From the NCBI GenBank assembly GCA_034429745.1, contig DAOUFY010000123.1, positions 895-64,894 of the forward strand: DNA of 64,000 bases. Direction: 5' to 3'. Positions 20,492-60,821 of this stretch are shown here, piece after piece (position 1 is the stretch's first letter; every line of letters starts with the position of its first letter). A program made the translations under genes and the position numbers. The notes under the pieces were generated by a model. That model did no database searches. It was not told the origin of the DNA and saw only the letters and a program-made list of their open reading frames with translations. The stretch comes from Anaerolineales bacterium (GTDB taxonomy: Bacteria; Chloroflexota; Anaerolineae; Anaerolineales; DRKV01).

Positions 20492-20857
20492 ATGTCTGCT
20501 ATTCGAATCATTGCTTATATCGCCGCGGCAATCTTGATATTTTTCGGCGTTCTTTTCATTTGGGCAACCTTTAGCCCTCAAGGTAACTTGGGCTGGCTGC
20601 TGATTGGTGTAATTTCCGTGCTAATAGGCTTCGGGTTGATTTGGTTCGCTCAGCGCCGCAAGGCAGCCGAGGAGCAAGAAAAGAATATTACCTATAAAGT
20701 TGATCTTTCTGGTGATATTAAGCTAGAAAGCCTCAAATGCAAAGCTTGCGGTGGTCCACTAACACCTGACAACGTTAAAATGGTGGCCGGTGCTCCCGTA
20801 GTAACCTGCCCCTACTGCGGTGTATCTTATCAACTTACCGAAGAGCCTAAATGGTAA
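20492..20857 (+). CDS. Small membrane protein with a C-terminal zinc ribbon
   Basis: Two TM helices, then CKACGG...CPYCG (CxxC...CxxC). Start at ATG 20492 behind AGAGGAGGG. The ORF-track start at 20447 is a TTG. Confidence 0.6.
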   Translation: MSAIRIIAYIAAAILIFFGVLFIWATFSPQGNLGWLLIGVISVLIGFGLIWFAQRRKAAEEQEKNITYKVDLSGDIKLESLKCKACGGPLTPDNVKMVAGAPVVTCPYCGVSYQLTEEPKW

Positions 20858-20868
20858 GGAGGCTCTTC

Positions 20869-22551: not shown

Positions 22552-22584
22552 TCAAGAGCAGAGCGATCTGCATAATGCCATTCT

Positions 22585-29864: not shown

Positions 29865-31283
29865 ATGACGATTCAAATCTATAATACCTTGACTCGCCAA
29901 AAAGAACCTTTTGAACCGTTAAAACCTGGACAAGTTTCTATGTATGTATGCGGTCCTACTGTCTATAGCAAAGCTCACGTTGGACACGCGATGTCAGCCA
30001 TTGTGTTTGACATCATCCGCCGATATTTGGAATATCGCGGTTACCGCGTTCACCACGTTATGAATTACACCGATGTGGATGATAAAATCATTCAACGCGC
30101 CAACCAAGAAGGCAAAGACCCTTTTCAACTTGCAGAAACTTATGCCCAAGAATTCGATCAGCATTTGCGCGATTTAAATGTCCTCCCACCTATGGTCAAA
30201 CCACGCGCAACTCAGACAATTACTCAAATTATCCAAATGGTTCAAGCTCTCATTGAAAAGGGGTATGCCTATCCTGTCAATGGTGATGTTTATTTCCGCG
30301 TTCAAAAGTTCAAGGAGTATGGCAAGCTCTCTCACCGCCGTCTTGAAGAAATGCAGGCCGGCGCCCGGATTGAGGTGGACGAACGCAAAGAACATCCGAT
30401 GGATTTTGCTCTCTGGAAAGCAGCCAAAGAAGGCGAACCCGCTTGGAACAGCCCTTGGGGAAAAGGTCGTCCCGGTTGGCACATTGAATGCTCAGCAATG
30501 AATTTAGCCCACCTCGGTGATCAAATTGATATACATGGGGGCGGCAATGATCTGATATTCCCTCACCATGAAAATGAAATTGCCCAAAGTGAAAGCTTCA
30601 CCGGCAAACCTTTTGCCAAATATTGGGTTCACAACGGCATGCTTCAGCTTTCCGGTGAAAAGATGTCAAAATCATTAGGCAACCTCGTTACTATTGAGGA
30701 CTTTCTGAAGCAACATGATGCAGATGTGTTGCGTTTAATGATTCTGAACTCCAGTTACCGTTCACCGCTTACCTTCAACAACGAAGTCATCTCCCAAACA
30801 AAACGCGCCCTAGAACGTTTGCGCCTTGCTTTGAAACCCGCCCAGCCGCAAGACGACCAAACAAGTGAAGAAGAAAAAAATGCAGCCATTAAAGCCCTCA
30901 ACGAACAAATGGAAAAAACAAAAAGCGGGTTTATTGAATGCATGGACGATGACTTCAACACGGCCGGCGCCTTAGGCAACCTTTTTGACCTCGTCAAAGC
31001 CATTAACCAAGCTCGCGACGCCGGCGTTGGTGATGAAGAACTTTCCAAAGCGCAAGCATTGCTCCTAGAATTAAGTGGAGTGCTTGGCTTGCGATTGGAT
31101 TCTCCTTCAACCTCAGCCTCCCAACAGAATATAACCCCCTTTGTGGACCTGCTGATCGAAATCCGCAAAGAATTACGAGCCCAAAAACTATGGGCATTAT
31201 CCGATCTCATTCGCGATCGCTTAAGGGAGTTAGGCGTCATCCTTGAGGATCAAAAAGATGGCACAATTTGGCGGCTTGAATAA
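29865..31283 (+). CDS. cysS: Cysteine--tRNA ligase
   Basis: HIGH-type motif HVGHA, KMSKS motif, and WHIECS. Confidence 0.95.
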
Positions 31284-47004: not shown

Positions 47005-49113
47005 TTATTGCACTCCCCACAGCTGTATAGCCCCACCATCAGACCCTGAAGCAAGAACCTCACCATCTGGTGAAAAAGCTACGCTCATCATCATGCCGGC
47101 GTCTCCCTCCAATGTACGTAGCAGCTCCCCATCTGCTGCCCGCCACAACCTCACACTCCCATCAGCCGACCCTGAGGCAAGAACAGTCCCGTCAGGCGAG
47201 AACGATATGCTCGAAATCCAATTCGTATGTCCTTCCAACGCGCGCAGCAACTCACCGTCCGCTGCTCGCCACAGCCGTACGGTACGATCCCCAGCCCCTG
47301 AAGCAAGCAATTTATCGTCTGGTGAGAAGGCTACGCTATATACCCCGTACGTATGTCCCTCCAATATGCGCAGCAACTCACCGTCCGCTGCTTGCCACAG
47401 CCGTACAGTGTTATCCCCGGAACCTGAGGCAATGACCGAACCATCCGCTGAGTAAGATACGCTTAATATTCCATCCGTGTGCCCCTCCAACGTGTGCAGC
47501 AGCATACCATCCTTTACCCCCCACAAGCGCACAGTGTTATCTCCAGACCCCGAGGCAAGGATCGAGCTGTCAGGTGAGAAGGTTACACTCGTTACATAGG
47601 ATGTGTGTCCCCATAGGGTACGCAGCAGCTCCCCGTCCGCTGCTCGCCACAGACGCACAGTGCGGTCCCCAGACCCTGTGGCAATGGTCAACCCATCCGC
47701 CGAATAAGCTATACTATTCACCCTATCCGTATGCCCCCACAACCTTCGCAGCAACTTACCGTCTGCTGCCCGCCATAGCCGCACAGTACCATTATCTGAC
47801 CCTGAGGCAAGAACTGACCCATCCGCTGAGTAGGCTATGCTCATCACCTTATCCTTTTGTCGCTCCAGTGTGCGCAGCAGTTGTACTTGAGCAGCATTTG
47901 CAGCAGAAATTCGTCTTTCCTGCACCGTCGCAGTTGCGCTAAATCGTTCAGTGGCAATAATCTCGTCCTTCTGCTCTATATCCTTCCTTTGCTGCCAACT
48001 TATCTCTTGTGTAAGCCCTTGTGCTACTCTCATTTGCGGTTCCATATCTTTCCTTTGCTGCCAAATGACACCCCAAGCAGCTATTATAAGAACAATAACC
48101 GCCGTTACCCATATCCACCTTTGAGTTAGTTGAAGGTTGGGGTGTTCCGCGGGAATCTTATTTGATAAAACTACCCTCTCCTCTGCTTTCATTCCATTAT
48201 TAGCTTTAGCTTTCTTAATCACCGTGTCCTCTAGCTCACTTGCCCTCTTCTCTCCGCTTGACTGCGACACGTTTATCGCTGCTCCGATCAACTTTTTCAT
48301 CGCACCAACCATCTCGTCCATCCCAGCATAGCGATCCCGCCAATCTTTTGCCAGCGCCTTGATTATCAAGTCCTCCGCTTCATCCGGGAGATCAGTCATT
48401 ATTTGCGATGGCTTTAGCAGTGGTTCTGTGGCTTGCTTGATGGCTATCGCCATCGGCGTGGTGGCTGTGTACGGCTTTCTCCCAGTTACCATCTCATAGA
48501 GAATCACCCCCAACGCATACTGGTCTGATTGTGGTAATGCCTCTCCTCTCCATTGCTCCGGCGCCATGTATTCCGGCGTGCCTACCCCAGCTCCACTCCT
48601 AGTCAATGCGGTCTCTTCCCCTTCCAGTATTTTCGCAACCCCAAAATCGGCAAGCATCAGCTCACCTGAGCGCGTGATCAATATATTCGAGGGTTTTACA
48701 TCGCGGTGTACTATTCCTTCTCCATGAGCATATTCCAATGCACAGGCTATGGGTAACAGTAGCTGTAGAGCTTCTATATACGACAGCTGACAACGCTCCT
48801 GCAGTAAAGATTTGAGTGTCCCTTTAGGCAGATACTCCATCACTAGATACGGCGAACCCTCATATTCTCCATAATCATATACCTTCACAATATTCGGGTG
48901 TGAAAGCCGCGCTAGCGATTTAGCCTCCCTCTCAAAACGCCTGAGAATACGCTTCAGAACAGCCGGCGCAAATTGCTCGGTGCGTATGACTTTGATAGCC
49001 ACATGGCGCTCAAGACGCGTATCGTAAGCTTTATAAACTATAGCCATCCCCCCTTCCCCTATTTGCTCAAGAATATGGTACCGCTCAAGATATTGTCCAA
49101 CGAGATTGGTCAT
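47005..49113 (-). CDS. Ser/Thr protein kinase with a TM helix and a seven-blade WD40 domain
   Basis: Kinase motifs GEGGMAIVYKA, HRDVKPSNIL, DFG and APE. One TM helix and 7 x 42-aa WD repeats (GHT...VRLW). Start at ATG 49113, since the AAGGAGG SD lies inside the longer ORF-track version. Confidence 0.9.
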   Translation of the reverse strand: MTNLVGQYLERYHILEQIGEGGMAIVYKAYDTRLERHVAIKVIRTEQFAPAVLKRILRRFEREAKSLARLSHPNIVKVYDYGEYEGSPYLVMEYLPKGTLKSLLQERCQLSYIEALQLLLPIACALEYAHGEGIVHRDVKPSNILITRSGELMLADFGVAKILEGEETALTRSGAGVGTPEYMAPEQWRGEALPQSDQYALGVILYEMVTGRKPYTATTPMAIAIKQATEPLLKPSQIMTDLPDEAEDLIIKALAKDWRDRYAGMDEMVGAMKKLIGAAINVSQSSGEKRASELEDTVIKKAKANNGMKAEERVVLSNKIPAEHPNLQLTQRWIWVTAVIVLIIAAWGVIWQQRKDMEPQMRVAQGLTQEISWQQRKDIEQKDEIIATERFSATATVQERRISAANAAQVQLLRTLERQKDKVMSIAYSADGSVLASGSDNGTVRLWRAADGKLLRRLWGHTDRVNSIAYSADGLTIATGSGDRTVRLWRAADGELLRTLWGHTSYVTSVTFSPDSSILASGSGDNTVRLWGVKDGMLLHTLEGHTDGILSVSYSADGSVIASGSGDNTVRLWQAADGELLRILEGHTYGVYSVAFSPDDKLLASGAGDRTVRLWRAADGELLRALEGHTNWISSISFSPDGTVLASGSADGSVRLWRAADGELLRTLEGDAGMMMSVAFSPDGEVLASGSDGGAIQLWGVQ
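47008..47889. repeat. Seven tandem 126-bp WD40-blade coding repeats with high nucleotide similarity
   Basis: Recurring ...GTVRLWRAADGELLRTLEGHT... at both protein and DNA level. The repeats generate long spurious antisense ORFs. Confidence 0.85.
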
Positions 49114-49630
49114 TGAGACCTCCTTTGCCAAGATTAATAAATCTTCCTAACAAACTACAATAGTTCAAATGATCATAATTTACCTCTATCTTCTGTTCCT
49201 TGTGCACTCTTGGTAAACAAATCGCTTTCCAGCGTAAATTAGCATCCTTTCTTCCTTAACTTAATTTATCATCAATAGTGAACATGATCATTTTAGGGGG
49301 CTATCAAACAAACTATATTTTTCCTAGGCTTCATTTATTAAAAAAGCAAAATTTATAGACACCAACTCTACCATTTTCATTATAGCACCGGAATTTCGCA
49401 TTGAGACATAAATCTCAATCTCTATGCTGTATCTTGCGTAACTTTTTTTAGAGAAGCGGGTTTTCTTTGTTAGGAAAAAGATTCTCACCTGCGAGTTGCA
49501 TTAGACAAAACGCTTCCCTTTAACCCAATCGGTTTTCAATTTAGTACCGTTATTGGCGAGCCTTAGCTTGCATAAGCAAAGGTGAGATTTTTTCTATCTA
49601 ACTTCACGAAAAAAGGAGATCGTATTCAAG

Positions 49631-52600
49631 ATGAGTACTACTCAACCTATTGCGATTGTTGGTTTAGGTGCCATTTTGCCTGATGCGCTAAATGTTCAGG
49701 ATTTTTGGCAAAACCTGCTTTCCGCTCGCTATAGCATTAGCGAGGTTACTAAAGACCGCTGGGACGAAGCTCTGTATTACGACTCTGACCCAAGCGTTCC
49801 TGATAAAACTTATTCAAAAATTGGCGGGTTTGTGCGCGGTTTTCGTTTTGAGCCCCTAAAGATGAAGCTGCCTATTCCACCTAATGTCGCCGCTGTCATG
49901 GATGAAGCCCAGCAATGGGCTATCGTTGCCAGCTATCAAGCCTTGCAGGATTATGGTTACCCTCAACGCTCACTTGATCCAGAAAGGGTGGCGGTTATCT
50001 TTGGCAACTCTATGGCTGGCGAATATCATTATCGAACCAATATGCGCATCTTTTTACCAGAGTACGAACAAGCGCTGGCTTCCTCTGAAGCTTTTCGCCA
50101 ATTAACCCCCGAAATTCAAGCGGCAATTTTGGAAGGGTTTAAATCCCAAATCCGCTCACGTATCCCCAACATCACCGAAGATACCATGCCCGGCGAGCTT
50201 TCAAATATCATCGCCGGCAGGGTCGCTAACTTATTCAACTTCAGTGGGCCCAATTTTGTTACTGATGCAGCTTGTGCCTCATCCTTCGCCGCACTTCAAG
50301 CAGCTATCGAAGGCTTGCAATCATACCAATTTGATGCTGTGCTTAGCGGCGGCATTGACCGCAATATGGGCGTTGAATCTTATGTAAAGTTCTGCAAAAT
50401 CGGCGCTCTTAGCCCGGATGGATCCCGCCCGTATGCCGATGGAGCTAATGGCTTCGTGATGGGTGAAGGTGCAGTGGTTTTCTTGCTTAAACGCCTAGCC
50501 GATGCCGAAAAAGATCAAGATCGCATCTATGCCGTTATCCGCGGAATAGGCGGCAGCAGTGATGGGAAAGGCAAAGGTATTACTGCTCCCAACCCATTAG
50601 GTCAGCAGCGAGCTATTGAACGTGCTTGGAAAAACGCTGCTCTATCTCCGAGTACTGCAACTCTCATCGAAGGTCATGGCACATCAACTCGAGTAGGTGA
50701 TGTGGTTGAAGTGAACACATTGAATACGGTGTTCTCACCCTTCAATCTGCCAACCGCCTCGATAGCTTTAGGTTCAGTAAAATCAAACATAGGCCATCTT
50801 AAAAGCGCAGCTGGAGCAGCTGGCTTGTTAAAAACCGTGCTTTCCCTTTATCATAAAAAACTCCTCCCCAACGCTAACTTCCATCGTCCAAATCCTAATT
50901 TAGACTTTGACCGTCTTCCTTTCTATGTGCTGACCACAGTAAAAGATTGGGATCAACCTAAAGCAGATATCCGCCGTGCCGGCATAAGTTCATTTGGGTT
51001 TGGTGGTACAAACTTCCATCTTGTCGTGGAAGAATATCTGCCCGGCTATGCCTTAAAGGGTTCCTCTTCTTACAGCGGCGTTGCATTGTCTGTTGCTCCT
51101 ATTCAATCAGCTTCCCCTGCCCACGTTAATGCGCAAACGATCCCTCAATCAATACCTGCAACACAAGTACAGTCAGCTTCTCCCTCACCAGCACCTCAGC
51201 CTGCTAATGCTGATATTCAAGCCACTGTCCTCAAACTCGTCGCTGAAAAAACCGGCTACCCTGAGGATATGCTCGACCTAGACCTCGACCTCGAAGCTGA
51301 CCTCGGTATTGATACCGTCAAGCAAGCTGAACTCTTCGCCACCATCCGCCAGCATTTCGGCATCCCCCGCCGCGAAGACCTGCGCCTCGCTGACTACAAT
51401 ACCCTCGCTAAAGTCATCCAATTCATGCAAGAAGCTCTCTCAGGCAGTTCACCTGCCCAAGCACCTCAACCAACAACAGCACCGCAGACAGCTCAGTCGG
51501 CTTCTCCCTCACCAGCACCTCAGCCTGCCAATGCTGATATTCAAGCCACTGTCCTCAAACTCGTCGCTGAAAAAACCGGCTACCCTGAGGATATGCTCGA
51601 CTTAGACCTCGACCTTGAAGCTGACCTCGGCATTGACACCGTCAAGCAAGCTGAACTCTTCGCTACCATCCGCCAGCACTTTGGCATCCCTCGCCGCGAA
51701 GACCTGCGCCTCGCTGACTACAACACCCTCGCCAAAGTCATCCAATTCATGCAAGAAGCCCTCTCAGGCAGTTCACCTGCCCAAGCACCTCAACCTTCAC
51801 CAGCACCGCAGGCAGCTCAGCAAGCTTCTCCCTCCCCAGCACCTCAGCCTGCTAATGCTGATATTCAAGCCACTGTCCTCAAGCTCGTCGCTGAAAAAAC
51901 CGGCTATCCTGAGGATATGCTCGACCTAGACCTCGACCTCGAAGCTGACCTCGGTATTGATACCGTCAAGCAAGCTGAACTCTTCGCCACCATCCGCCAG
52001 CATTTCGGCATCCCCCGCCGCGAAGATCTGCGCCTCGCTGATTACAACACCCTCGCCAAAGTCATCCAATTTATGCAAGAAGCCCTCTCAGGCAGTTCAC
52101 CTGCCCAAGCACCTCAACCAACAGCAGCTGCAGCCATATCCGTTGAAAAGGCTACCTTGCCTCCTTCTGCACCTCAGGCGTCAGCCCAGCCCAGACAGCG
52201 TGGATTGCGCGGAATTCTCTTCCTCAGTGCAACCGATCCCCAATCTCTACAGCAGCAGTGCGAACAAGCAATTAATGCAACCCGCAATGGGATTTTGCCA
52301 AATCAAGCTCCACTTTCCACTCATGAACTTTCTCAACCCGAACGATTAGCTATAGACTATGGCAGCGCTGAAGAACTTATAAAACGCGCTGAAAAAGCTC
52401 TTTCGGCTTTTGAAAACCCATCGCTTTGGCAAAATTTAACCGGGCAAGGCATTTATCGCTTCAGCGGTTCTAATAAAGACCACAAAGTAGCTTTCCTTTT
52501 CCCCGGTCAAGGTTCTCAATATGCCAATATGCTGCGCGACTTATTTGATGTTTCTTCTTCGGTAAGAGATACTTACGCCGAAGCAGATGCCGTTATGACA

Positions 52601-55600
52601 CCCCTTCTTGGCAAACCGCTTACCGACTACATTTTTTGTGAAAATACCGAAGAAGCTATTAAAGCCGCTGAAGCCGAATTGAAAAACACCATCATTACCC
52701 AGCCGGCTGTACTTACCGCAAATGTCGCTTTGATGCGTCTGCTGGGAGAATACAATATTCATCCCGATCTTGTGATTGGACACAGTCTTGGTGAATATGC
52801 TGCCTTAGTCGCAGCAGGAGTGCTCAGCTTTGCAGAAGCGCTTGAAGTTGTCAGTGCGCGCGGCCGTGAGATGAGCAAAGTTACTGTTGCGGATAACGGC
52901 ACCATGGCAGCTATTTCTGCCCCTCTAGAAGTAGTCGAATCAACACTCAAGCAAATTGACGGCTATATCGTTATCGCTAATATTAATAGTCCTTCCCAGT
53001 CCGTGATTGCCGGGGAAACCGCTGCAGTTGCTTCAGCAATCGAAGCTTTTCAAGCTGCCGGCTACCAAGCAGTCAAACTATCAGTATCTCACGCTTTTCA
53101 CAGTAAAATTGTTGCACCAGCCAGCGAACCGTTGCGCAAAGTCATTCAGCGCATGCACATTCACCCCCCCAAGCTGCCTATTGCAGCTAACGTTACTGGT
53201 GATCTATACCCCAACACAGTTGAGGAAATAACAGACTTGCTCTGTCAGCAGATTGCATCACCAGTTCAATTCATTCGCGGCATCAATACGCTATACAATC
53301 ATGGAGCTCGCATATTTGTGGAAGTTGGTCCCAAACGCGTCCTCAGTACTTTGGCTTTAGAAATCCTTAAAGACAAAAACGATGTGTATATTTTTTCCAC
53401 TAACCACCCACGCAAGGGCGGAATTGCCAGCTTCAATGAAGGGTTATGTGGCTTATATGCTTGCGGTTTGCCTCGTCAAACAGCAGGAACAACAATCCAA
53501 TCAACGCAGATGCCCTCCATCCCCAAGAATACTTCAATCAAATACACTAGCTTTCCTAAATGGAATGGCCGTCTTCCGTTAAGCGGTTCCGTGGTCATCA
53601 GTGGTGCAGGACTAGGTTTACCCGGTAAAGCTCACCACGTTTTCGAAGATGACAATATTCAACGGCTGCTCAATGGTGAAATGCGCATTGATCCACTTCC
53701 TGAAGAGATTCGGCGTGAGATGGTCTCTCTGCGTATTACTCGTTTAGAAAAAAGCGAAAGTGGTGCGGTGATGGTACCTATAGAATCAACCAATCAAGTA
53801 ATAAAGCTAGCCGGTCAACGCGGTGCTTTTGATTTGCATCAGGAGTTTGGCATACCTCAGGAGAGAGTAGATGCCCTCGATATAACCACTCAGCTCGCTA
53901 TCGCTGCCGGAATTGAGGCGCTGCGCGACGCAGGCATTCCACTAATAATGAATTTCCGTAAAACCAGCAAAGGCACTTATTTGCCTGACCGTTGGATGCT
54001 CCCTCCGGCTTTAGCTGACGAAACCGGCGTAATCTTTGCTTCCGCCTTCCCCGGCTTAGGTGGTATGGCAGAAGAGCTTGAACGCTACTACACCGCCCAG
54101 CAAATTCAGGCCCAAATCTCAGAAATAAGCAGCTTGCTTGATCTTATACCTAATGATAATCAAGCTTTGCGTGAAAATCTGCTCAATCGCTTAGCGGAAT
54201 TGGAAGAGCAATCGAAAGCTCATCCCTATCAATTTAACCGTAACTTCATCTTTCGTGTGCTGACGATGGGACATTCCCAATTTGCTGAATACATTGGGGC
54301 GCGCGGTCCAAACACTGCGGTCAACGCTGCTTGTGCTACAACAACTCATGCCTTGGCTATAGCAGAAGATTGGATCCGCGCCGGACGCTGCCGCCGCGTT
54401 ATTGTCATCGCCGGCGACGATCCAACAAGCGGCAGTATTGCTCCTTGGATCAGCGGCGGGATGTTCGCCAGCGGCGCAGCAACCACGGAAGGTAATTTGC
54501 GCCTTGCTGCCCTACCCTTTGATCGGCGTCGTAACGGAATGCTTATGGGAATGGGCGCAGCTGCCCTTGTCGTAGAAGCTCAAGAAGCCCTTGTTGAACG
54601 CGGTATGACACCCATCTGCGAAATTCTTGCCTCCGTCATAGCTAACAGTGCCTTCCATGGAACACGCTTAAACATAGACCATGTAAGTCAGGTAATGGAC
54701 CGAGTACTGAGCGAAGCAGAAACTCGCTACGGCATTAAGCGTTCTGAGATTGCCCCTCATACAGTATTCATCTCACATGAAACTTACACCCCGGCTCGCG
54801 GCGGCAGTGCTTCAGCTGAGATCCGTGCCCTGCGCTACACCTTTGGAGACCAAGCGGATAAAGTGATGATCGCCAATACCAAAGGTTACACTGGTCATGC
54901 TATGGGCGTCGGCATCGAGGACGTGCTTGCCACAAAAGCTCTGGAATACCAAATCGTTCCTCCGATTGCTCATATCAATGATGGCTTTGAACCCGATCCG
55001 GAATTGGGCAACCTCAACCTCTCGCGTGGCGGCAAAGCTGATGTTCACTACGCCTTACGGCTTGGAGCAGGTTTCGGTTCTCAGATCGCCATGTCCTTGA
55101 TGCGGAAAGTTGGCACCGCCGGGCAGCGTATTGACCATCCTCGCTACCAGAAGTGGCTATCCAACATCTCTGGTTACCCCAACCCGACATTAGAGGTTGT
55201 TCAACATACTTTGCGGATCAAAAATGAAGGCGTCCCTCCTCAACCTCCTGCAGATTCTGAATGGCAATATGGTCAGGTTCCAAAGGCTTGGGCATTAGAC
55301 GTACCGCCAACAGCAGATGCTTTCTTAGCTCACAGTGAGTCTATCCCTAGTGCTGATCAGTCCGAGATAACCCAACAACCAACACCGCAGAGTCCGGCAG
55401 CAACTAGTCCAATTGAACATGCTGACCCAACAACCTTAGCTGAAGTAGCTCAACACGTTCAACGCGCCCTAGTAAACGGCTCAGACCCCCTCAGCCTGTC
55501 AGCATATAAAGAACTATTTGAGCCGGCAAGCAAACTCCCCCAAGTAAGTGAAGAAAAGAGGATTTCACTGCTTGCACCAATTTTCAAAGCTGCTAGTCAA

Positions 55601-58204
55601 GCACAGCAACCTCCTGCAGAGCAATCTCCGCAGATCGAGATTAGCCATGAAAGTGAAAAGATTGAGGAGGCAAAACCAGAAATCAAGCGCCGCATTCCTT
55701 TGCCTAGTCTGCGCCCTCGCTTAGACCTATGCCTCCCAACCAACATTGCTCTCAATGCCGAAAGCCGTATCGTGTTTGTTGGCAGCAAGCATAAAGCCGC
55801 TGAAGCCTTGCTGCGCAAATTGCGCAACCGCAAAGTTAAGCTGCTTTCCATCCAGACTGATGATCCTCAGGAAATCCAAACTCAAATTCAAGCCTTCTCT
55901 CAAGAAGGTGAACTGCAAGGTGTGTTTTTCCTAGCTGCTTTAGATACAGAACCACCCCTTGGGGAAATGGATTATCTTGCCTGGCAAACTGAACTTGACC
56001 ATCGTCTCTATACTCTCGAAGCCATATTGCGTGCTATCCCTTACCAACCTAATGCAGCGCATCAACCCTTCCTTGTTTGCGCTACGGCTATGGGTGGTGC
56101 TTTTGGATATGATGTCGAAGGTGCCCGCTCGCCCTTAGGCGGAGCCGTGGTTGGTTTAGCTAAAGCCATTGCTCGTGAACGCCAAGGCTGGTTCGTTAAG
56201 GTAATAGACTTTTCGCCCAACGAAAGTTCTAACTTCATCGCTGAAAAGCTTATTGCCGAAACTCTTCAAGATAATGCTGTGATCGAAGTAGGGTGGAAAA
56301 ACAACATGCGCTTCGGCATTACTCTTCACGAACAGCCCCTGCCAAGCTCAGAATCAACTGTTTCCTTGAGTCTGGCAGATCAGACCCCCGTTGTTTTAGT
56401 AAGCGGCGGCAGTGGAGGTATCACCGTCCCAATTCTGCTAGATTTAGCAAAAACAGTCCAAGCTCATTTCTTCCTACTGAGCCGCACACCCCTCCAAGAA
56501 GATGACCCAGATCTTATTCTCTTCAAACAAATCGGCAGAAATGCCTTGAAACAAACTTTGCTCCAGCGAGCAAAAGAAAGCGGTGTTAAAGTAAAGCCGG
56601 CCGAAATTGAAAGGCAAATTGATGTACTCGAACGCAAAGCTGCTGCCCAAGCTGCTGTGGAAGCACTCACTCAAGCCGGCTCCCAAGTAACCCACTTGGT
56701 TTGTGATGTAAGCCAGAGTGAATCAGTAGAACAAACTGTACAGCAAGTATTGTCTCAAGCCGCTCGAGTTGATGTACTCATTCATGCAGCTGGTGTTGAA
56801 CGCAGCCGCAGTTTAGAGACCAAACCAACCGAAGAATTTCATCAAATTGTTGCCATCAAAGCCGGCGGTTTCTTCAACCTTTACTCAGCTTTGCTGAAGC
56901 ACCAAGCACTGCCTAAAGTGATGATCGCCTTCGGATCGGTAGCTGGCCGCTTTGGCAACAGCGGACAAACAGATTACAGTGCCGCCAATGATCTGCTGAG
57001 CAAGCTCTGTTCAGCTATCAGAAAGACTCATAACATTCAGGCAGTCTGCATTGATTGGGGCGCTTGGGCAGAGGTTGGCATGGCAAGCCGCGGTGTTATC
57101 CCTGAATTGATGCGCCGCGCCGGCATCGAGATGATGTCTCCTAACGCTGCTGCTCCCTTGTTGCGCCAAGAGCTGCTGAGCGGCTGCCCGCATAGCGAAG
57201 TCGTTTATAGCGGCAGCTTAGGCATTCTTGAACAACAAGCCGATGAAGCATATGGCTTGGATCTTGAAAAAGCAAATACTGCCCTCACTGAAGGCAAGCC
57301 TATTTATGAGATGATCACCCGTCTGAACAGCTTCACTCCTCAAGATGGCATCTACTTAGAAGCCGAGCTTGATCCTCAAGAATATCCCATGTTGCGCGAT
57401 CATGCCATTCGAGGTATTCCCGTTTTACCGGGCGTCATCGGTATTGAAGGCTTTCGCATTGCAGCCCGCCACATTGCCTCAACGCTTGCTTCTCAGAAAG
57501 GCAGTTTCCTAGCACAGCACCTTGAAGATATTCAATTCCTTGTCCCATTCAAGTTTTATCACAATGCACCGCGTCGCATTCTTTGGAAAGCAAAAGCTCT
57601 ACTGGAAGAAAAGGGGTTGATTGCTTATGCTACATTAGAGTCAACTCGCGTCCGCCCCAATGGTGAAGTTGACCATCGCTTGCATTTCAAAGGCAAGGTT
57701 TTCCTCACTCCCACCAAAGAAGCTCTGCAGCCTGTCAAAACTCAACCGCCGCATTGGAATGGAGCTTATACGGTAAGTTCAGATGATATTTACCGCATAT
57801 ATTTCCATGGTCCAGCTTTCCAAGTACTAGAAGCCGTACAACGCAACAATGGGCATATCATCGGTAAAATGCATCAGCAAGTGCTTGATTACACTAAAAA
57901 CCCCATCCCCTACTTAATCGAGCTCTGCCTGCAAACGGCCGGTGTTTGGGAAATTGGGCTTAGAGGCATCTTAGCTTTGCCGAACGCTATTGATCAACTC
58001 ACTATCTACACCAATAAGCTAAATGGAAAAGCCATTTTTGCCCAAGTATTTCCCCAAATAAATGGCGATTCTTATACCTTTGACGCCCAAGCCATTGATG
58101 CAGAAGGTAATTTACTCGTTGAGATGAAAGGGTACCGCACCATCGCCACCGAGATGTCGGTTGACTCTGATCTCATCCTTCCCTTAAGGAAGTTAATGGA
58201 ATAA
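49631..58204 (+). CDS. PUFA-synthase-like (pfaA-type) iterative type I PKS/FAS: KS - 3xACP - AT - KS - KR - DH
   Basis: KS1: DAACASS, HGTSTRVGD, NIGHLKSAAG. Three ACP-like domains follow. AT: GHSLGEY and HAFHS. KS2: NAACATTTH, SHETYT, GYTGHAMG. KR: SGGSGGIT and YSAAND. C-terminal DH: HAIRGIPVLPG (HxxxGxxxxP). Confidence 0.9.
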   Translation: MSTTQPIAIVGLGAILPDALNVQDFWQNLLSARYSISEVTKDRWDEALYYDSDPSVPDKTYSKIGGFVRGFRFEPLKMKLPIPPNVAAVMDEAQQWAIVASYQALQDYGYPQRSLDPERVAVIFGNSMAGEYHYRTNMRIFLPEYEQALASSEAFRQLTPEIQAAILEGFKSQIRSRIPNITEDTMPGELSNIIAGRVANLFNFSGPNFVTDAACASSFAALQAAIEGLQSYQFDAVLSGGIDRNMGVESYVKFCKIGALSPDGSRPYADGANGFVMGEGAVVFLLKRLADAEKDQDRIYAVIRGIGGSSDGKGKGITAPNPLGQQRAIERAWKNAALSPSTATLIEGHGTSTRVGDVVEVNTLNTVFSPFNLPTASIALGSVKSNIGHLKSAAGAAGLLKTVLSLYHKKLLPNANFHRPNPNLDFDRLPFYVLTTVKDWDQPKADIRRAGISSFGFGGTNFHLVVEEYLPGYALKGSSSYSGVALSVAPIQSASPAHVNAQTIPQSIPATQVQSASPSPAPQPANADIQATVLKLVAEKTGYPEDMLDLDLDLEADLGIDTVKQAELFATIRQHFGIPRREDLRLADYNTLAKVIQFMQEALSGSSPAQAPQPTTAPQTAQSASPSPAPQPANADIQATVLKLVAEKTGYPEDMLDLDLDLEADLGIDTVKQAELFATIRQHFGIPRREDLRLADYNTLAKVIQFMQEALSGSSPAQAPQPSPAPQAAQQASPSPAPQPANADIQATVLKLVAEKTGYPEDMLDLDLDLEADLGIDTVKQAELFATIRQHFGIPRREDLRLADYNTLAKVIQFMQEALSGSSPAQAPQPTAAAAISVEKATLPPSAPQASAQPRQRGLRGILFLSATDPQSLQQQCEQAINATRNGILPNQAPLSTHELSQPERLAIDYGSAEELIKRAEKALSAFENPSLWQNLTGQGIYRFSGSNKDHKVAFLFPGQGSQYANMLRDLFDVSSSVRDTYAEADAVMTPLLGKPLTDYIFCENTEEAIKAAEAELKNTIITQPAVLTANVALMRLLGEYNIHPDLVIGHSLGEYAALVAAGVLSFAEALEVVSARGREMSKVTVADNGTMAAISAPLEVVESTLKQIDGYIVIANINSPSQSVIAGETAAVASAIEAFQAAGYQAVKLSVSHAFHSKIVAPASEPLRKVIQRMHIHPPKLPIAANVTGDLYPNTVEEITDLLCQQIASPVQFIRGINTLYNHGARIFVEVGPKRVLSTLALEILKDKNDVYIFSTNHPRKGGIASFNEGLCGLYACGLPRQTAGTTIQSTQMPSIPKNTSIKYTSFPKWNGRLPLSGSVVISGAGLGLPGKAHHVFEDDNIQRLLNGEMRIDPLPEEIRREMVSLRITRLEKSESGAVMVPIESTNQVIKLAGQRGAFDLHQEFGIPQERVDALDITTQLAIAAGIEALRDAGIPLIMNFRKTSKGTYLPDRWMLPPALADETGVIFASAFPGLGGMAEELERYYTAQQIQAQISEISSLLDLIPNDNQALRENLLNRLAELEEQSKAHPYQFNRNFIFRVLTMGHSQFAEYIGARGPNTAVNAACATTTHALAIAEDWIRAGRCRRVIVIAGDDPTSGSIAPWISGGMFASGAATTEGNLRLAALPFDRRRNGMLMGMGAAALVVEAQEALVERGMTPICEILASVIANSAFHGTRLNIDHVSQVMDRVLSEAETRYGIKRSEIAPHTVFISHETYTPARGGSASAEIRALRYTFGDQADKVMIANTKGYTGHAMGVGIEDVLATKALEYQIVPPIAHINDGFEPDPELGNLNLSRGGKADVHYALRLGAGFGSQIAMSLMRKVGTAGQRIDHPRYQKWLSNISGYPNPTLEVVQHTLRIKNEGVPPQPPADSEWQYGQVPKAWALDVPPTADAFLAHSESIPSADQSEITQQPTPQSPAATSPIEHADPTTLAEVAQHVQRALVNGSDPLSLSAYKELFEPASKLPQVSEEKRISLLAPIFKAASQAQQPPAEQSPQIEISHESEKIEEAKPEIKRRIPLPSLRPRLDLCLPTNIALNAESRIVFVGSKHKAAEALLRKLRNRKVKLLSIQTDDPQEIQTQIQAFSQEGELQGVFFLAALDTEPPLGEMDYLAWQTELDHRLYTLEAILRAIPYQPNAAHQPFLVCATAMGGAFGYDVEGARSPLGGAVVGLAKAIARERQGWFVKVIDFSPNESSNFIAEKLIAETLQDNAVIEVGWKNNMRFGITLHEQPLPSSESTVSLSLADQTPVVLVSGGSGGITVPILLDLAKTVQAHFFLLSRTPLQEDDPDLILFKQIGRNALKQTLLQRAKESGVKVKPAEIERQIDVLERKAAAQAAVEALTQAGSQVTHLVCDVSQSESVEQTVQQVLSQAARVDVLIHAAGVERSRSLETKPTEEFHQIVAIKAGGFFNLYSALLKHQALPKVMIAFGSVAGRFGNSGQTDYSAANDLLSKLCSAIRKTHNIQAVCIDWGAWAEVGMASRGVIPELMRRAGIEMMSPNAAAPLLRQELLSGCPHSEVVYSGSLGILEQQADEAYGLDLEKANTALTEGKPIYEMITRLNSFTPQDGIYLEAELDPQEYPMLRDHAIRGIPVLPGVIGIEGFRIAARHIASTLASQKGSFLAQHLEDIQFLVPFKFYHNAPRRILWKAKALLEEKGLIAYATLESTRVRPNGEVDHRLHFKGKVFLTPTKEALQPVKTQPPHWNGAYTVSSDDIYRIYFHGPAFQVLEAVQRNNGHIIGKMHQQVLDYTKNPIPYLIELCLQTAGVWEIGLRGILALPNAIDQLTIYTNKLNGKAIFAQVFPQINGDSYTFDAQAIDAEGNLLVEMKGYRTIATEMSVDSDLILPLRKLME
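51176..52147 (+). repeat. Three tandem 324-bp near-identical repeats, each encoding one ACP domain plus a Pro/Ala/Gln linker
   Basis: The GCTTCTCCCTC... motif recurs at 51176, 51500 and 51824, an exact 324-nt period. Confidence 0.9.
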
Positions 58205-58325: not shown

Positions 58326-59090
58326 ATGGATACCTTTATTTTTGAACAAGAATCTATTTATGGCATATTCCTCAATGCCCCTTCAGAACAAGACAAAGAA
58401 ACATGGCTAGCGTATGAAAATTATCTTTCGGAACAAGAAAAGCTATTTCTAGCAGGGCTGCGTTTCCCCAAGCGGCAGCGTGATTGGCTGTTAGGTCGCT
58501 TCACGGCTAAAAAACTGCTGCTTGAATTCCCGCACCTTGCGTCAAGCTGCCCCATTCACCAACTGACAATTGCTAATGACCCTCAAGGAGCCCCTTGCAT
58601 CCTTCTACCAGACCAAACCGTAATGAATGGTTGTTTATCCATCAGCCACAGCAGTGGTGCGGCTTTCTGTGCTTGGACTCCCCTTACAACTCAACACATT
58701 GGAGCAGATATTGAACTCATTGCCCCTCACCCTCAATACTTTATTGAAGATTATTTTACACCATTTGAAATCGCCCAATGTGCACAAGCCCCTGAACCAT
58801 TGCGCGCAGATCTTGTAACCGCAATTTGGAGCGCAAAAGAAGCTGTCCTCAAAGCTCTGCGGCAAGGCTTGAAATGGGACACACGTCAAGTTGAAATCAA
58901 TCTCTCTGCAATAAATCTCGAGCAAACGCAGTTCGGCATTTGGTACCCGGCAGAGGTTGCACAGCCAAAAAGCAAAGAAAAAACTTGGCAGCTTTGGATT
59001 CAACGCTCCCAAGTCTATATACTCACGTTAGCTTGCTTAAAAGAAACCGCCGTTATTGAACCAGAGGGGAATACGGCCGGTAGGCATTAA
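58326..59090 (+). CDS. Sfp-type 4'-phosphopantetheinyl transferase
   Basis: Motifs GADIELI and WSAKEAVLKAL (WxxKEAxxK). Confidence 0.8.
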   Translation: MDTFIFEQESIYGIFLNAPSEQDKETWLAYENYLSEQEKLFLAGLRFPKRQRDWLLGRFTAKKLLLEFPHLASSCPIHQLTIANDPQGAPCILLPDQTVMNGCLSISHSSGAAFCAWTPLTTQHIGADIELIAPHPQYFIEDYFTPFEIAQCAQAPEPLRADLVTAIWSAKEAVLKALRQGLKWDTRQVEINLSAINLEQTQFGIWYPAEVAQPKSKEKTWQLWIQRSQVYILTLACLKETAVIEPEGNTAGRH

Positions 59091-60690
59091 ACCAAGCCGC
59101 CGGCACAGGGATACCATAATCCATTAAGGTATGCAGCCTCCGTAGATAAGCAGCACCGCTCAGCAAATGCAAGGCTACATCCGCCACATGTCGTTGCGCA
59201 GGTTCTGCCAAATAGCTGCCTCGCACCCACTCATTGAAAGCTCCTAGACTCGGACCGCACCATATTTGGTAATCAACCTCACGTCCTTTCTCGCCAAGCA
59301 CTGCCCAATGGGAAGATAAGCCAAGATACCAGCGAAACACCAACGCCATTTTTTGCTTCGGGTCTCGTTTTGCCCGCTCTATTTGGCTTGCATCTCGTTG
59401 ACTGAAGAAGCGCTGAGTCTCCTCCCATATTTCCTCAAGACTGCGTTTAAAAATTTGCTTTTCTATCTTCTCTCGCTCTTCGGCTGGAATTTCTTCCAAA
59501 GAGCCATAGCGCACATAGAGCTCATATAGTTTTAGAGCTCGCATGGCAAACATTGTTCCTCTTTTCAGCACCTGCACCTTCACACCCATTTCAAACATAT
59601 CCGCTGCAGGCGCCATAGCAACATCGGTCATTTCCATTTGACTGAGCAGCTTTTTCACATGCTCACTTGTACCGCTCTCTACACAGGATTGATTCACCGA
59701 GCCGCTTACGAGATATGCAGCTCCTAATTGCAATGCAGCATAAGCAGCGGCAGGAGTGCCAATTCCTCCCCCACCACCAACGCGAACCGCTTGTGCATAC
59801 TTCTTTTCCGCTTGTATTTCATCTCGCAAAGCGATGATAGCAGGCAAAGCCAGCACTAAAGGACGGTTATCCGTATGTCCGCCGGAATCGGCTTCTACGG
59901 TAATGTCATCTGCCATGGGAACAGCTTCAGCTAGTGCAGCCTGTTGGGCGGTAATCTTTCCGGCAGCTAGCAGCTGCTGCACCATATCTGCCGCCGGCGG
60001 AAGCAGAAAATGCTTCGCTACCTCCTTGCGGGATACCTTCGCTATGATTCGGTTTCTTGGCTGCGGCTTACCTTGCTCATCTACCACCAAACCACAGACT
60101 CTATACTGCACTAAAGGTAGGGTTAACCCTAAATAAGCAGAAGCTTCTATAGCCCGAATTTCATGCTTTAAATACAGCTCGACTGTATTTTGCTCCATTG
60201 CCGGCTCATTTGGGCTATTGATCAAATTAAACAAATATGGGCCATTGGGAAGTGCCGCTTTTATGGTTTGGATTGCCTTTTCAATCCTTGAAAGCGACAG
60301 TCCAGCAGCTCCAAATGAACCCATTAAGCCAGCCTTTCCTAATGCGATAACCATCTCCTCTGAGCTGATGGCATTTGCCATTGCTCCTCCATAGTAAGCA
60401 TATCGACAGCCGTAAGTTCTGCAAAAGGTTTCATCTCCTAGCTGCTGGAGCGACAATGGTGGTAAATATGCCGCTAGCTGCCTTTCTCCTTCTTCTATCG
60501 CAAGGTTATCAGCTTTGCTAATGCTGCCTTCAATCGTGTAACCTAAGCGGTCGTGGTCATCAAGCACATAAACAGGCTGATCCAATTCCAACAAGACACG
60601 AGAGACTTGTTCTCCCTGAAAAGCGACTTTGCTCAAATCGCCTTTCCATTTCAATAAACGTAAAGGGTGGTTATAATTTGTTCCGTTCAT
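59053..60690 (-). CDS. PfaD-family trans-acting enoyl reductase (nitronate-monooxygenase fold)
   Basis: Motifs YGGAMANAISSEEMVIALGKAGLMGSFGAAG and SGGHTDNRP. Start placed at ATG 60690 (545 aa), because the 587-aa ORF-track version covers the divergent promoter. ATG 60714 is also possible. Confidence 0.8.
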   Translation of the reverse strand: MNGTNYNHPLRLLKWKGDLSKVAFQGEQVSRVLLELDQPVYVLDDHDRLGYTIEGSISKADNLAIEEGERQLAAYLPPLSLQQLGDETFCRTYGCRYAYYGGAMANAISSEEMVIALGKAGLMGSFGAAGLSLSRIEKAIQTIKAALPNGPYLFNLINSPNEPAMEQNTVELYLKHEIRAIEASAYLGLTLPLVQYRVCGLVVDEQGKPQPRNRIIAKVSRKEVAKHFLLPPAADMVQQLLAAGKITAQQAALAEAVPMADDITVEADSGGHTDNRPLVLALPAIIALRDEIQAEKKYAQAVRVGGGGGIGTPAAAYAALQLGAAYLVSGSVNQSCVESGTSEHVKKLLSQMEMTDVAMAPAADMFEMGVKVQVLKRGTMFAMRALKLYELYVRYGSLEEIPAEEREKIEKQIFKRSLEEIWEETQRFFSQRDASQIERAKRDPKQKMALVFRWYLGLSSHWAVLGEKGREVDYQIWCGPSLGAFNEWVRGSYLAEPAQRHVADVALHLLSGAAYLRRLHTLMDYGIPVPAAWFNAYRPYSPLVQ

Positions 60691-60753
60691 CACTTCTTTA
60701 AACCCTCTTGTCATAAAAACGTTGCACATTAAAAAATAAATTCTGCCAAGCAA

Positions 60754-60782
60754 TTGCTCACTTGCCAAAAATAGATTATAAT
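60754..60782 (+). promoter_or_regulatory. Promoter TTGCTC-17 nt-TATAAT for the Zn-ribbon/nuclease genes
   Basis: Read directly. The -10 box sits within the palindrome ATTATAAT, so the same box could also serve the divergent pfaD-like gene. Confidence 0.5.
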
Positions 60783-60821
60783 CGGCTTCACTATTGGAAT
60801 AAATAAAAAAGGACAACCATC

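What the first reader, a model, noticed from the sequence alone, without database searches (positions are those of the whole stretch)
51176..52147. All three tandem carrier domains carry Thr instead of the canonical phosphopantetheinyl Ser
Each repeat reads ...[45 protein letters not shown]... This aligns closely with PfaA ACPs as I recall them (...[28 protein letters not shown]...).

The modified residue in the DS(I/L) motif is Thr here, encoded as gat/gac ACC gtc in all three copies. No Ser lies nearby in the helix-II start.

Three readings are possible. These domains may be pantetheinylated on Thr by the adjacent PPTase. They may be non-canonical or inactive carriers. Or there is a family-specific variant I am not aware of.

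The conservation across three otherwise slightly diverged DNA copies argues that it is not an error.
Basis: partly seen in the sequence, partly recalled or inferred. Interest (0 to 1): 0.6.

Follow-up and report, generated by a model that had tools for sequence, protein, structure and literature searches.

The report
Carrier domains with threonine acceptor site
All three acyl carrier domains of this fatty-acid/polyketide megasynthase have threonine where every textbook carrier protein has the cofactor-bearing serine, and the same holds in a large, unstudied enzyme family spread across many bacterial phyla, which points to an undescribed threonine-linked form of the phosphopantetheine modification.

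Summary
ORF 49631-58204 (+) encodes a 2857-aa PfaA-like synthase, KS-ACP x3-AT-KS2-KR-DH. All three ACPs read [13 protein letters not shown]. Thr562, Thr670 and Thr778 (ACC codons) align with the phosphopantetheinyl Ser of solved ACPs and start helix II in an AlphaFold model.

It is neither an error nor a local oddity.
- Thr is fixed in a large family found in at least 572 species-level genomes of Chloroflexota, Acidobacteriota, Elusimicrobiota, Actinomycetota, Myxococcota and others.
- This family matches the uncharacterised "Type R" secondary-lipid synthases.
- With the acceptor codon left free, a metagenome scan gave 301 Thr (all four codons), 2 Ser and nothing else.
- No Ser-type ACP lies within 10 kb in 82 related loci.
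- A homologous Sfp-type PPTase follows the synthase in 46 of 47 complete loci, and is sometimes fused to it.
- Sibling synthases with the same architecture and the same PPTase family carry Ser, and one array mixes S, T, T.

Best reading, about 0.7: Thr is the phosphopantetheine acceptor, loaded by the linked PPTase (58326-59090). This is inferred, not shown. E. coli ACP S36T is reported as unmodifiable, and I found no paper describing Thr carriers. I rate it a new variant of a known kind.

The parts
49631..58204 (+). PfaA-like iterative megasynthase, 2857 aa: KS - ACP x3 - AT - KS2 - KR - DH
   Evidence: ORF list and translation. Pfam domains. TIGR02813 scores 1059 bits against a cutoff of 1010. 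Catalytic motifs read: DAACASS, HGTST and SNIGH (KS); GHSLGE and HAFH (AT); YSAAN (KR); HxxxGxxxxP (DH).
49643..51037 (+). KS1 (aa 5-469)
   Evidence: PF00109, PF02801 and PF16197
51170..52128 (+). 324-bp tandem repeat x3 encoding the ACP array and its Pro/Ala-rich linkers
   Evidence: TRF score 1736, 94% matches. Synonymous-only divergence in the cores.
51203..51445 (+). ACP1 (aa 525-605). Acceptor-position Thr562, codon ACC 51314-51316.
   Evidence: PP-binding. Alignment to solved ACPs. AF2 pLDDT 87.6, with helix II starting at the Thr. Foldseek TM 0.83-0.89 to ACPs.
51527..51769 (+). ACP2 (aa 633-713). Thr670, codon ACC 51638-51640.
51851..52093 (+). ACP3 (aa 741-821). Thr778, codon ACC 51962-51964.
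52493..53383 (+). Malonyl-type acyltransferase (aa 955-1251)
   Evidence: PF00698 E=8e-44. TIGR00128 fabD E=9e-66.
53768..55180 (+). Second KS-like domain in the CLF position (aa ~1380-1850). It retains Cys (AACATT) and both His.
   Evidence: Ketoacyl-synt stretches and ACP_syn_III. Homology map. Motifs read.
56393..57073 (+). KR (aa 2255-2481)
   Evidence: PF08659 E=3e-36
57335..58153 (+). PKS-type dehydratase (aa 2569-2841)
   Evidence: PF21089 and PF14765
58326..59090 (+). Sfp-type 4'-phosphopantetheinyl transferase, 254 aa, directly downstream. It is the proposed loader of the Thr-ACPs.
   Evidence: PF01648. The IGADIE and WSAKEAVLKA catalytic motifs are intact. A family profile hits Sfp at 7e-12 and AcpS at 7e-14. 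Homologues sit downstream in 46 of 47 complete related loci and are fused in L065 and P0318.
59053..60816 (-). PfaD-family trans enoyl reductase, convergent with the PPTase
   Evidence: TIGR02814 scores 657 bits against a cutoff of 449. PfaD_N, NMO and FabD_helical_ins.

Best explanation
The three domains are functional PfaA-type acyl carrier domains in which the 4'-phosphopantetheine arm is attached to threonine (Thr562, Thr670, Thr778) instead of serine.

They belong to a large, ancient sister clade of the classical PfaA ACPs. Its motif is EADLG[IV]D-T-VKQ[AV]E, against D-S-IKRVE in the classical clade. This clade serves single-polypeptide secondary-lipid synthases: the "Type R" of Shulse & Allen, plus an Anaerolineae subgroup with PfaD to which this window belongs.

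Proposed mechanism:
- The Sfp-type PPTase encoded immediately downstream (58326-59090) transfers phosphopantetheine from CoA to the Thr hydroxyl at the N-terminus of helix II.
- The holo-ACPs then carry malonyl and growing acyl thioesters between KS, AT, KS2, KR, DH and the trans-ER PfaD, to build a long-chain fatty acyl product of unknown structure.

Shown: the Thr, its family-wide fixation, the ACP fold, the absence of any Ser carrier nearby, the linked PPTase, and the intact catalytic domains.

Inferred: that Thr is actually modified, that the linked PPTase does it, and the reason Thr is preferred. Possible reasons are insulation from housekeeping PPTases or hydrolases, or a more stable phosphodiester.
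For: 1. The residue sits exactly at the acceptor position. Evidence is the alignment to solved ACPs, an AF2 model with pLDDT 87.6 in which helix II starts at the Thr, and Foldseek TM 0.83-0.89 with rmsd ~1.5 A to ACPs.

2. Only hydroxyl residues occur there.
- A metagenome scan for DLG[IVM]D-X-VKQAE with X free gave 301 Thr and 2 Ser, no other residue. The Thr codons were ACC 154, ACG 109, ACT 21 and ACA 17.
- Among 628 HMM-aligned ACP domains from an exhaustive phmmer search, 390 were T, 233 S and 5 other. All five others are low-scoring copies: four have lost the helix-II motif altogether, and the fifth (P0258, T to A) keeps DLGID and VKQ but has diverged downstream.

3. The motif around Thr is more conserved than in Ser-type PfaA ACPs: D 1.0, T 1.0, V 0.98, K 0.99, Q 1.0.

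4. An ACP-independent query (KR-DH) recovers homologues at 37-52% identity. All 58 of their upstream ACP motifs have Thr.

5. No Ser-type ACP motif lies within 10 kb in 82 genome loci holding 275 Thr ACPs. The catalytic domains are intact and need a carrier.

6. A homologue of the window PPTase follows the synthase in 46 of 47 loci with full flanks. In L065 it is fused as a C-terminal domain.

7. Ser and Thr are interchangeable in homologous systems.
- P0318 has the same KS-AT-KS2-ACPn-KR-DH-PPTase architecture with Ser ACPs (DLGIDSVKVAE).
- L092 and L096 carry DSVKQAE and have the same PPTase family downstream.
- P0350 mixes S, T, T in one array.

8. The three window copies show only synonymous divergence in their cores.
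Against: There is no biochemical evidence here or in the searched literature that any PPTase can use Thr.

In the best-studied case, E. coli ACP S36T is described as unmodifiable and non-functional (PMC3340395).

PPTase linkage is not specific to Thr systems. Some classical pfa clusters and the Ser siblings have it too.

I could identify no convincing Thr-specific feature in the PPTase. The only candidate is Asp185, present in 59 of 64 Thr-linked enzymes against G, G and E in the three Ser-linked ones.

The product and physiological role of the whole family are unknown.
Confidence: 0.7

Rival explanations
1. Pseudo-carriers. The Thr domains are never pantetheinylated and serve a structural or scaffolding role, while a Ser-type ACP encoded elsewhere, such as the housekeeping AcpP, shuttles the intermediates.
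For: E. coli ACP S36T is reported as unmodifiable. The window covers only 64 kb, so a trans ACP elsewhere in the genome cannot be excluded. Inactive ACP-like copies do exist in some arrays.
Against: Genuinely decayed copies lose the helix-II motif, whereas the Thr domains keep it almost invariant across phyla. Strict S/T-only occupancy points to a needed hydroxyl, and a structural role would tolerate Ala, Gly or Asn. No Ser ACP lies within 10 kb in 82 loci. The linked or fused PPTase would have no substrate. Tandem multiplication of carriers (2-7 copies) is the hallmark of throughput-limiting active ACPs in Pfa synthases (PMC3098273).
Confidence: 0.13
2. The Thr hydroxyl is used, but for a different chemistry: either a different prosthetic group, or direct O-acylation of Thr without a pantetheine arm.
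For: The hydroxyl is clearly required. Nothing here identifies the attached group.
Against: The co-conserved neighbour is a bona fide Sfp-type PPTase with intact Mg/CoA and catalytic-base motifs. KS, AT, KR and DH domains of PfaA type act on pantetheine thioesters. Homologous Ser versions are ordinary PfaA-like ACPs. No phosphoribosyl-dephospho-CoA transferase genes were seen among the neighbours that were Pfam-scanned.
Confidence: 0.07
3. Artefact: a sequencing or assembly error, or a decaying pseudogene.
For: None beyond the a priori rarity of Thr at this site.
Against: Three diverged copies all carry ACC. The exact protein is present in independent public assemblies. 301 of 303 family sites in metagenomes and 275 of 275 in genomes have Thr, using all four codons. 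The 8.6-kb ORF is uninterrupted with intact catalytic motifs.
Confidence: 0.01

Closest known systems
Tandem ACP domains of PUFA synthase subunit PfaA (TIGR02813; Shewanella, Moritella, Photobacterium, Schizochytrium)
   Same: Four-helix ACP fold. The first half of the domain has a near-identical consensus ([23 protein letters not shown]). Both occur as tandem arrays with Pro/Ala-rich linkers, embedded in a KS/AT/KR/DH megasynthase that works with PfaD.
   Different: The acceptor residue is Thr, not Ser. The helix-II signature is T-V-K-Q-A-E-x-F instead of S-I-K-R-V-E-I-L. There is no PfaB or PfaC (FabA-type DH/I) partner in the window.
"Type R" secondary lipid synthase (Shulse & Allen 2011, PMC3098273): one pfaA homologue KS-MAT-CLF-ACP(3-6)-KR plus a downstream PPTase, in Koribacter, Solibacter, Elusimicrobium and Roseiflexus
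   Same: Single-polypeptide synthase with a PPTase immediately downstream. Same phyla. The Thr-ACP loci recovered here include Elusimicrobium minutum, Korobacteraceae, Bryobacteraceae and Chloroflexota. Product uncharacterised.
   Different: In the window the ACP array sits between KS1 and AT rather than after KS2. P0250 and P0289 carry ACPs at both sites. The window and its Anaerolineae relatives add a PfaD enoyl reductase. The paper does not mention serine or threonine at all.
Sfp-type PPTases (Sfp, PfaE, HetI, AASDHPPT) acting on Ser of carrier proteins
   Same: PF01648 domain, a two-lobed ~250-aa enzyme with conserved GxD-x-E and W-S-x-K-E-x-x-x-K motifs.
   Different: The presumed substrate hydroxyl is on Thr. 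The Thr-linked subfamily carries a GL-x-x-D-T-R motif after the catalytic helix that is absent from Sfp, AASDHPPT and a PfaE. The similarity to HetI is far below cutoff (41 against 370 bits).
E. coli AcpP S36T mutant
   Same: Ser-to-Thr at the acceptor position of an ACP.
   Different: The engineered mutant is reported as unmodifiable by 4'-PP and non-functional (PMC3340395). Here Thr is the naturally selected state in hundreds of species.

Membership tests
Acyl carrier protein / PP-binding domain (PF00550) | Four-helix bundle fold | tested here: met
   AF2 pLDDT 87.6, with helices at 2-19, 40-54, 64-67 and 70-82. Foldseek TM 0.83-0.89 and rmsd 1.4-1.5 A to many ACPs.
Acyl carrier protein / PP-binding domain (PF00550) | Profile match above the curated threshold | tested here: met
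   PF00550 scores 85 bits over three stretches against a cutoff of 20.8.
Acyl carrier protein / PP-binding domain (PF00550) | Conserved Ser in the D-S-(L/I) motif at the start of helix II as the 4'-phosphopantetheine acceptor | tested here: not met
   Thr at the aligned position in all three copies. There is no Ser anywhere in the folded core.
Acyl carrier protein / PP-binding domain (PF00550) | Covalent phosphopantetheine modification | not testable with these tools
   Needs mass spectrometry of protein co-expressed with the PPTase.
PfaA (polyketide-type PUFA synthase subunit A, TIGR02813) | Whole-protein score above the curated cutoff | tested here: met
   1059 bits against a cutoff of 1010.1.
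PfaA (polyketide-type PUFA synthase subunit A, TIGR02813) | Domain order KS-AT-ACPn-KR-DH, with PfaB, PfaC (KS-CLF-DH/I x2) and PfaD partners | tested here: not met
   The order is KS-ACP3-AT-KS2-KR-DH. Only PfaD is present. No FabA-type DH/I gene was found among the nine ORFs between 43.7 and 64 kb that were Pfam-scanned.
Type R secondary lipid synthase (Shulse & Allen 2011) | A single pfaA homologue containing KS, MAT, a second KS/CLF, tandem ACPs and KR | tested here: met
   All these domains are in one ORF.
Type R secondary lipid synthase (Shulse & Allen 2011) | ACP array located after the CLF (KS-MAT-CLF-ACP3-6-KR) | tested here: not met
   The array lies between KS1 and AT. Relatives P0250 and P0289 have arrays at both positions.
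Type R secondary lipid synthase (Shulse & Allen 2011) | PPTase gene directly downstream | tested here: met
   58326-59090 (+) in the window. Present in 46 of 47 related loci.
Sfp-type phosphopantetheinyl transferase | ACPS domain with Mg/CoA-binding Asp and Glu, and the W-x-x-K-E-x-x-x-K catalytic helix | tested here: met
   PF01648 E=2.6e-17. IGADIE and WSAKEAVLKA motifs. D128, E130, E172 and K176 are invariant in 64 relatives.
Sfp-type phosphopantetheinyl transferase | Pseudo-dimeric two-lobe enzyme of ~230-250 aa | tested here: met
   254 aa. The profile's N-terminal half aligns to AcpS (7e-14), and positions 45-184 align to Sfp residues 44-175 (7e-12).
Sfp-type phosphopantetheinyl transferase | Transfers Ppant to a carrier-protein Ser | not testable with these tools
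   The only cis substrates carry Thr. An in-vitro assay is needed.

The most novel reading that the evidence does not exclude
O-(4'-phosphopantetheinyl)-threonine is a natural, widespread post-translational modification. It would be made by a distinct subfamily of Sfp-type PPTases that co-evolved with Thr-type ACPs. The Thr/PPTase pair would form a carrier system insulated from the cell's Ser-specific AcpS, Sfp and ACP hydrolase machinery: a ready-made orthogonal carrier/PPTase pair.
Probability: 0.4. Interest if true: 0.85.

Novelty: new variant of a known kind. Interest (0 to 1): 0.72.

Why it matters
The "invariant serine" is the defining feature of all ACP, PCP and ArCP carrier domains. 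It underlies the PROSITE and Pfam site annotations, active/inactive calls in genome-mining tools, and PPTase enzymology.

A family of carriers in hundreds of species across at least seven phyla that has fixed Thr instead has several consequences:
- If modified, it adds a new residue to the chemistry of phosphopantetheinylation.
- It implies PPTases with an altered or broadened acceptor specificity.
- Genome-mining rules that demand Ser would mis-score these synthases.
- It offers a candidate orthogonal carrier/PPTase pair for engineering.
- It draws attention to an abundant, uncharacterised lipid synthase of soil, sludge and gut bacteria (Anaerolineae, Acidobacteriota, Elusimicrobiota).

It can be tested directly with one co-expression and an intact-mass measurement.

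Tried and rejected
- **Literature searches.** I made ten full-text searches: for the motif itself (DTVKQ, GIDTVK and similar), for Thr with phosphopantetheine or ACP, for "replaced by threonine", for explicit phrases such as "phosphopantetheinyl threonine", and for Type R, Chloroflexi or Acidobacteria pfa systems. None returned a report of Thr carriers or a product for this family. Subscription journals are largely absent from the library, so prior description cannot be excluded.
- **Thr-specific feature in the PPTase.** I compared 64 Thr-linked enzymes with 3 Ser-linked same-family enzymes, a PfaE, Sfp and AASDHPPT. Only Asp185 in a GLxxDTR motif stands out. The Ser-linked sample is too small to conclude.
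- **Origin of the window.** A cyanobacterial origin seemed likely at first. CysS places the window in Anaerolineae at 70-77% identity.
- **Standalone small Thr-ACP proteins.** The 66-146-aa hits looked like free-standing ACPs. The two checked, P0022 and P0039, lie within synthases split into several gene calls in metagenome-assembled genomes.
- **Names and RNA families.** Cluster-member look-ups gave almost no names. Rfam found nothing in the window.
- **An alternative Ser acceptor.** Rejected: the folded core has no Ser and the family alignment has no conserved Ser.
Full report
**1. What is in the sequence**

Positions 49631-58204 (+) form one uninterrupted ORF of 2857 aa.

Pfam and NCBIfam give this domain order:
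- KS, aa 5-469
- three PP-binding domains, aa ~525-821
- a malonyl-type AT, aa 955-1251
- a second KS-like domain in the position of a chain-length factor, aa ~1380-1850, which still has its Cys and both His
- KR, aa 2255-2481
- a PKS-type DH, aa 2569-2841

The whole protein passes the PfaA model TIGR02813, 1059 bits against a cutoff of 1010.

An Sfp-type PPTase lies directly downstream at 58326-59090 (+). A PfaD-family enoyl reductase converges on it at 59053-60816 (-), scoring 657 bits against a cutoff of 449 for TIGR02814.

The catalytic signatures of KS, AT, KR and DH are all readable in the translation. This is a working synthase, not a relic.

**2.

A 324-bp unit is repeated 3.0 times at 51170-52128 (TRF score 1736). 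Each unit encodes an identical ACP core...[65 protein letters not shown].

The acceptor-position codons are ACC at 51314-16, 51638-40 and 51962-64, giving Thr562, Thr670 and Thr778.

Alignments to solved ACPs place this Thr on the phosphopantetheinyl Ser. An AlphaFold2 model has pLDDT 87.6 and the canonical four helices, with helix II beginning exactly at the Thr. Foldseek matches ACPs at TM 0.83-0.89 and ~1.5 A.

The folded core contains no serine at all.

The copies differ by 17-34 nucleotides. Inside the cores these are 10-17 synonymous codon changes. Amino-acid changes occur only in the linkers.

**3. It is a family trait**

- A word-indexed search with one ACP returned 595 hits. All 120 listed carry EADLG[IV]DTVKQAE. 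This search is biased towards the motif.
- A KR-DH query is blind to the ACP. It found homologues at 37-52% identity, and all 58 of their upstream ACP motifs have Thr.
- An exhaustive phmmer search of 1.84 billion cluster representatives gave 6461 hits at E<=1e-3 and 918 at E<=1e-30.
- Among the top 150 proteins, about 105 have Thr-only arrays of 2-6 ACPs and about 40 are classical Ser-type PfaA (DSIKRVE or DSIKKAQ).
- Aligned by HMM, 628 ACP domains split into 390 T, 233 S and 5 other.
- All five others are low-scoring copies. In four the helix-II motif has decayed altogether. The fifth, P0258, has T to A with DLGID and VKQ retained and only the downstream sequence diverged. They serve as an internal picture of what a dead ACP looks like.
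They span Chloroflexota (Anaerolineae closest, 70-81% identity), Acidobacteriota, Elusimicrobiota, Actinomycetota (including a cultured Amycolatopsis), Myxococcota, Gemmatimonadota, Leptospiraceae and Thermodesulfobacteriota.
- The window itself is from an Anaerolineae-like organism. Its CysS is 70-77% identical to Anaerolineales proteins.

**4. The hydroxyl is what is selected**

I scanned metagenome contigs for DLG[IVM]D-X-VKQAE with the X codon unconstrained. The 303 sites gave 301 Thr (ACC 154, ACG 109, ACT 21, ACA 17), 2 Ser, and no other residue.

Ser is one nucleotide away from every Thr codon. The near-fixation of Thr across phyla therefore means Thr is preferred over Ser in this family. 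The total absence of Ala, Gly, Asn and similar residues means the hydroxyl is needed.

Around the site the Thr clade is more conserved than the Ser clade. The two consensus sequences are the same up to DLGID and diverge from the acceptor onward: T-V-K-Q-A-E-x-F against S-I-K-R-V-E-I-L.

**5. Context**

In 82 genome loci with 10-kb flanks there are 275 Thr ACP motifs and no Ser-type ACP motif. A homologue of the window's PPTase is present in 46 of the 47 loci with complete flanks, on the same strand just after the synthase. PfaD is present in 10 of the 47, mainly in Anaerolineae.

In L065 the PPTase is fused to the synthase C-terminus: KS-AT-KS2-ACP2-KR-DH-PPT.

The usual architecture is KS-AT-KS2-ACPn-KR-DH. 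The taxa match the "Type R" secondary lipid synthase of Shulse & Allen, whose product is unknown and whose description never mentions serine or threonine (PMC3098273).

The window is a variant in which the ACP array has moved to between KS1 and AT. P0250 and P0289 carry arrays at both positions.

**6. Ser and Thr are interchangeable in homologous systems**

- P0318 has the same single-protein architecture with a fused same-family PPTase, but Ser ACPs (DLGIDSVKVAE).
- The two Ser sites from the metagenome scan, L092 and L096, sit in related synthases. Each is followed by a PPTase of the same family, E ~1e-19 to the Thr-linked profile.
- P0350 has S, T, T in one array, and its Ser domain is closest to Thr-type domains.

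These cases argue that the Thr occupies the same functional role as the Ser.

**7. Mechanism proposed, and what is not shown**

The most economical reading is that the linked PPTase transfers phosphopantetheine from CoA to the Thr hydroxyl, and that the holo-ACPs serve the iterative KS/AT/KS2/KR/DH + PfaD cycle.

The PPTase keeps all the catalytic residues: D128, E130, E172 and K176, which are invariant in 64 relatives. Its profile matches Sfp at 7e-12 and AcpS at 7e-14.

What makes it accept Thr is unknown. The only candidate marker is Asp185 in a GLxxDTR motif. It is present in 59 of 64 Thr-linked enzymes, is G, G or E in the three Ser-linked relatives, and is absent from a PfaE, Sfp and AASDHPPT. 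That sample is too small to lean on.

Against the proposal, E. coli ACP S36T is described as incapable of 4'-PP modification and fails to complement (PMC3340395). No paper in the searchable library reports Thr-linked phosphopantetheine.

Why Thr would be preferred is speculation. Possibilities are insulation from housekeeping PPTases or ACP hydrolase, or a phosphodiester less prone to beta-elimination.

**8. Rivals**

- Pseudo-carriers with a trans Ser-ACP, about 0.13. This is disfavoured by the motif conservation, the S/T-only occupancy, the absence of a cis Ser-ACP, and the linked or fused PPTase. It cannot be excluded from a 64-kb window.
- A different prosthetic group or direct O-acylation, about 0.07. 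This fits the need for a hydroxyl, but not the PPTase or the PfaA-type partner domains.
- Error or pseudogene. Refuted.

**9. Verdict**

Thr as the genuine acceptor is the best-supported mechanism at about 0.7, but it needs one mass-spectrometry experiment.

The synthase family is known but uncharacterised. The Thr acceptor appears to be undescribed in the literature I could search. I classify it as a new variant of a known kind, with interest 0.72.

Noticed in passing
window 51170-52128, compared with P0250, P0289, P0312 and others: The ACP array has changed position within the megasynthase. The window has KS-ACP3-AT-KS2-KR-DH, while most Thr-type relatives have KS-AT-KS2-ACPn-KR-DH. P0250 and P0289 carry ACPs at both sites, which looks like an evolutionary intermediate of domain relocation.
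   Followed up: partly
P0400 and P0404 (same 90% cluster as the window PKS): Near-identical synthases of 2641 aa have one ACP instead of three, exactly two 108-aa repeats fewer. This is either real copy-number variation or repeat collapse in assembly.
   Followed up: partly
L065 2710-13383 (+), and P0318: The PPTase is fused as the C-terminal domain of the synthase, once with Thr ACPs (L065) and once with Ser ACPs (P0318). The layout resembles that of enediyne PKSE.
   Followed up: partly
P0258, P0272, P0279, P0349, P0368: Some Thr-type arrays contain one low-scoring, decayed ACP-like copy with A, I, D or G at the acceptor position. The helix-II motif is lost in four of them.
   Followed up: partly
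L001 1573-5161; L002 13251-18827; L206 321-1883: Acetyl-CoA carboxylase subunit genes (carboxyltransferase, biotin carboxylase, biotin-lipoyl) sit next to several of these synthases. This suggests a dedicated malonyl-CoA supply. None is seen next to the window cluster.
   Followed up: no
window 29865-31283: CysS is 70-77% identical to Anaerolineales and Chloroflexota proteins (72% to Anaerolinea thermophila). The window therefore comes from an Anaerolineae-like bacterium and not, as its WD40 kinase might suggest, a cyanobacterium.
   Followed up: yes
window 4778-5959 (+): A BioF/Kbl-family PLP acyltransferase scores best against the serine palmitoyltransferase model NF047600, at 547 bits, below the cutoff of 640. 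This may indicate sphingolipid-type chemistry in a Chloroflexota genome.
   Followed up: no
window 16554-18626 (-): A 690-aa ORF resembles prohead protease/major capsid protein fusion proteins (NF045541, E=1.6e-32). It could be a prophage remnant or an encapsulin-like element.
   Followed up: no
window 47005-49131 (-): A Ser/Thr protein kinase fused to a seven-blade WD40 propeller lies immediately upstream of the synthase and is divergently oriented. No link to the cluster was tested.
   Followed up: no
window 20851-23931 (+): A radical SAM/SPASM protein (22585-23931) follows a 566-aa ORF with no family match. This may be a peptide-maturation pair.
   Followed up: no
window PPTase aa 181-187 (58866-58886): Thr-linked PPTases share a GL-x-x-D-T-R motif after the catalytic helix. 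Asp185 is present in 59 of 64 of them, but is G, G or E in three Ser-linked relatives and absent from a PfaE, Sfp and AASDHPPT. It is a weak lead for acceptor specificity.
   Followed up: partly
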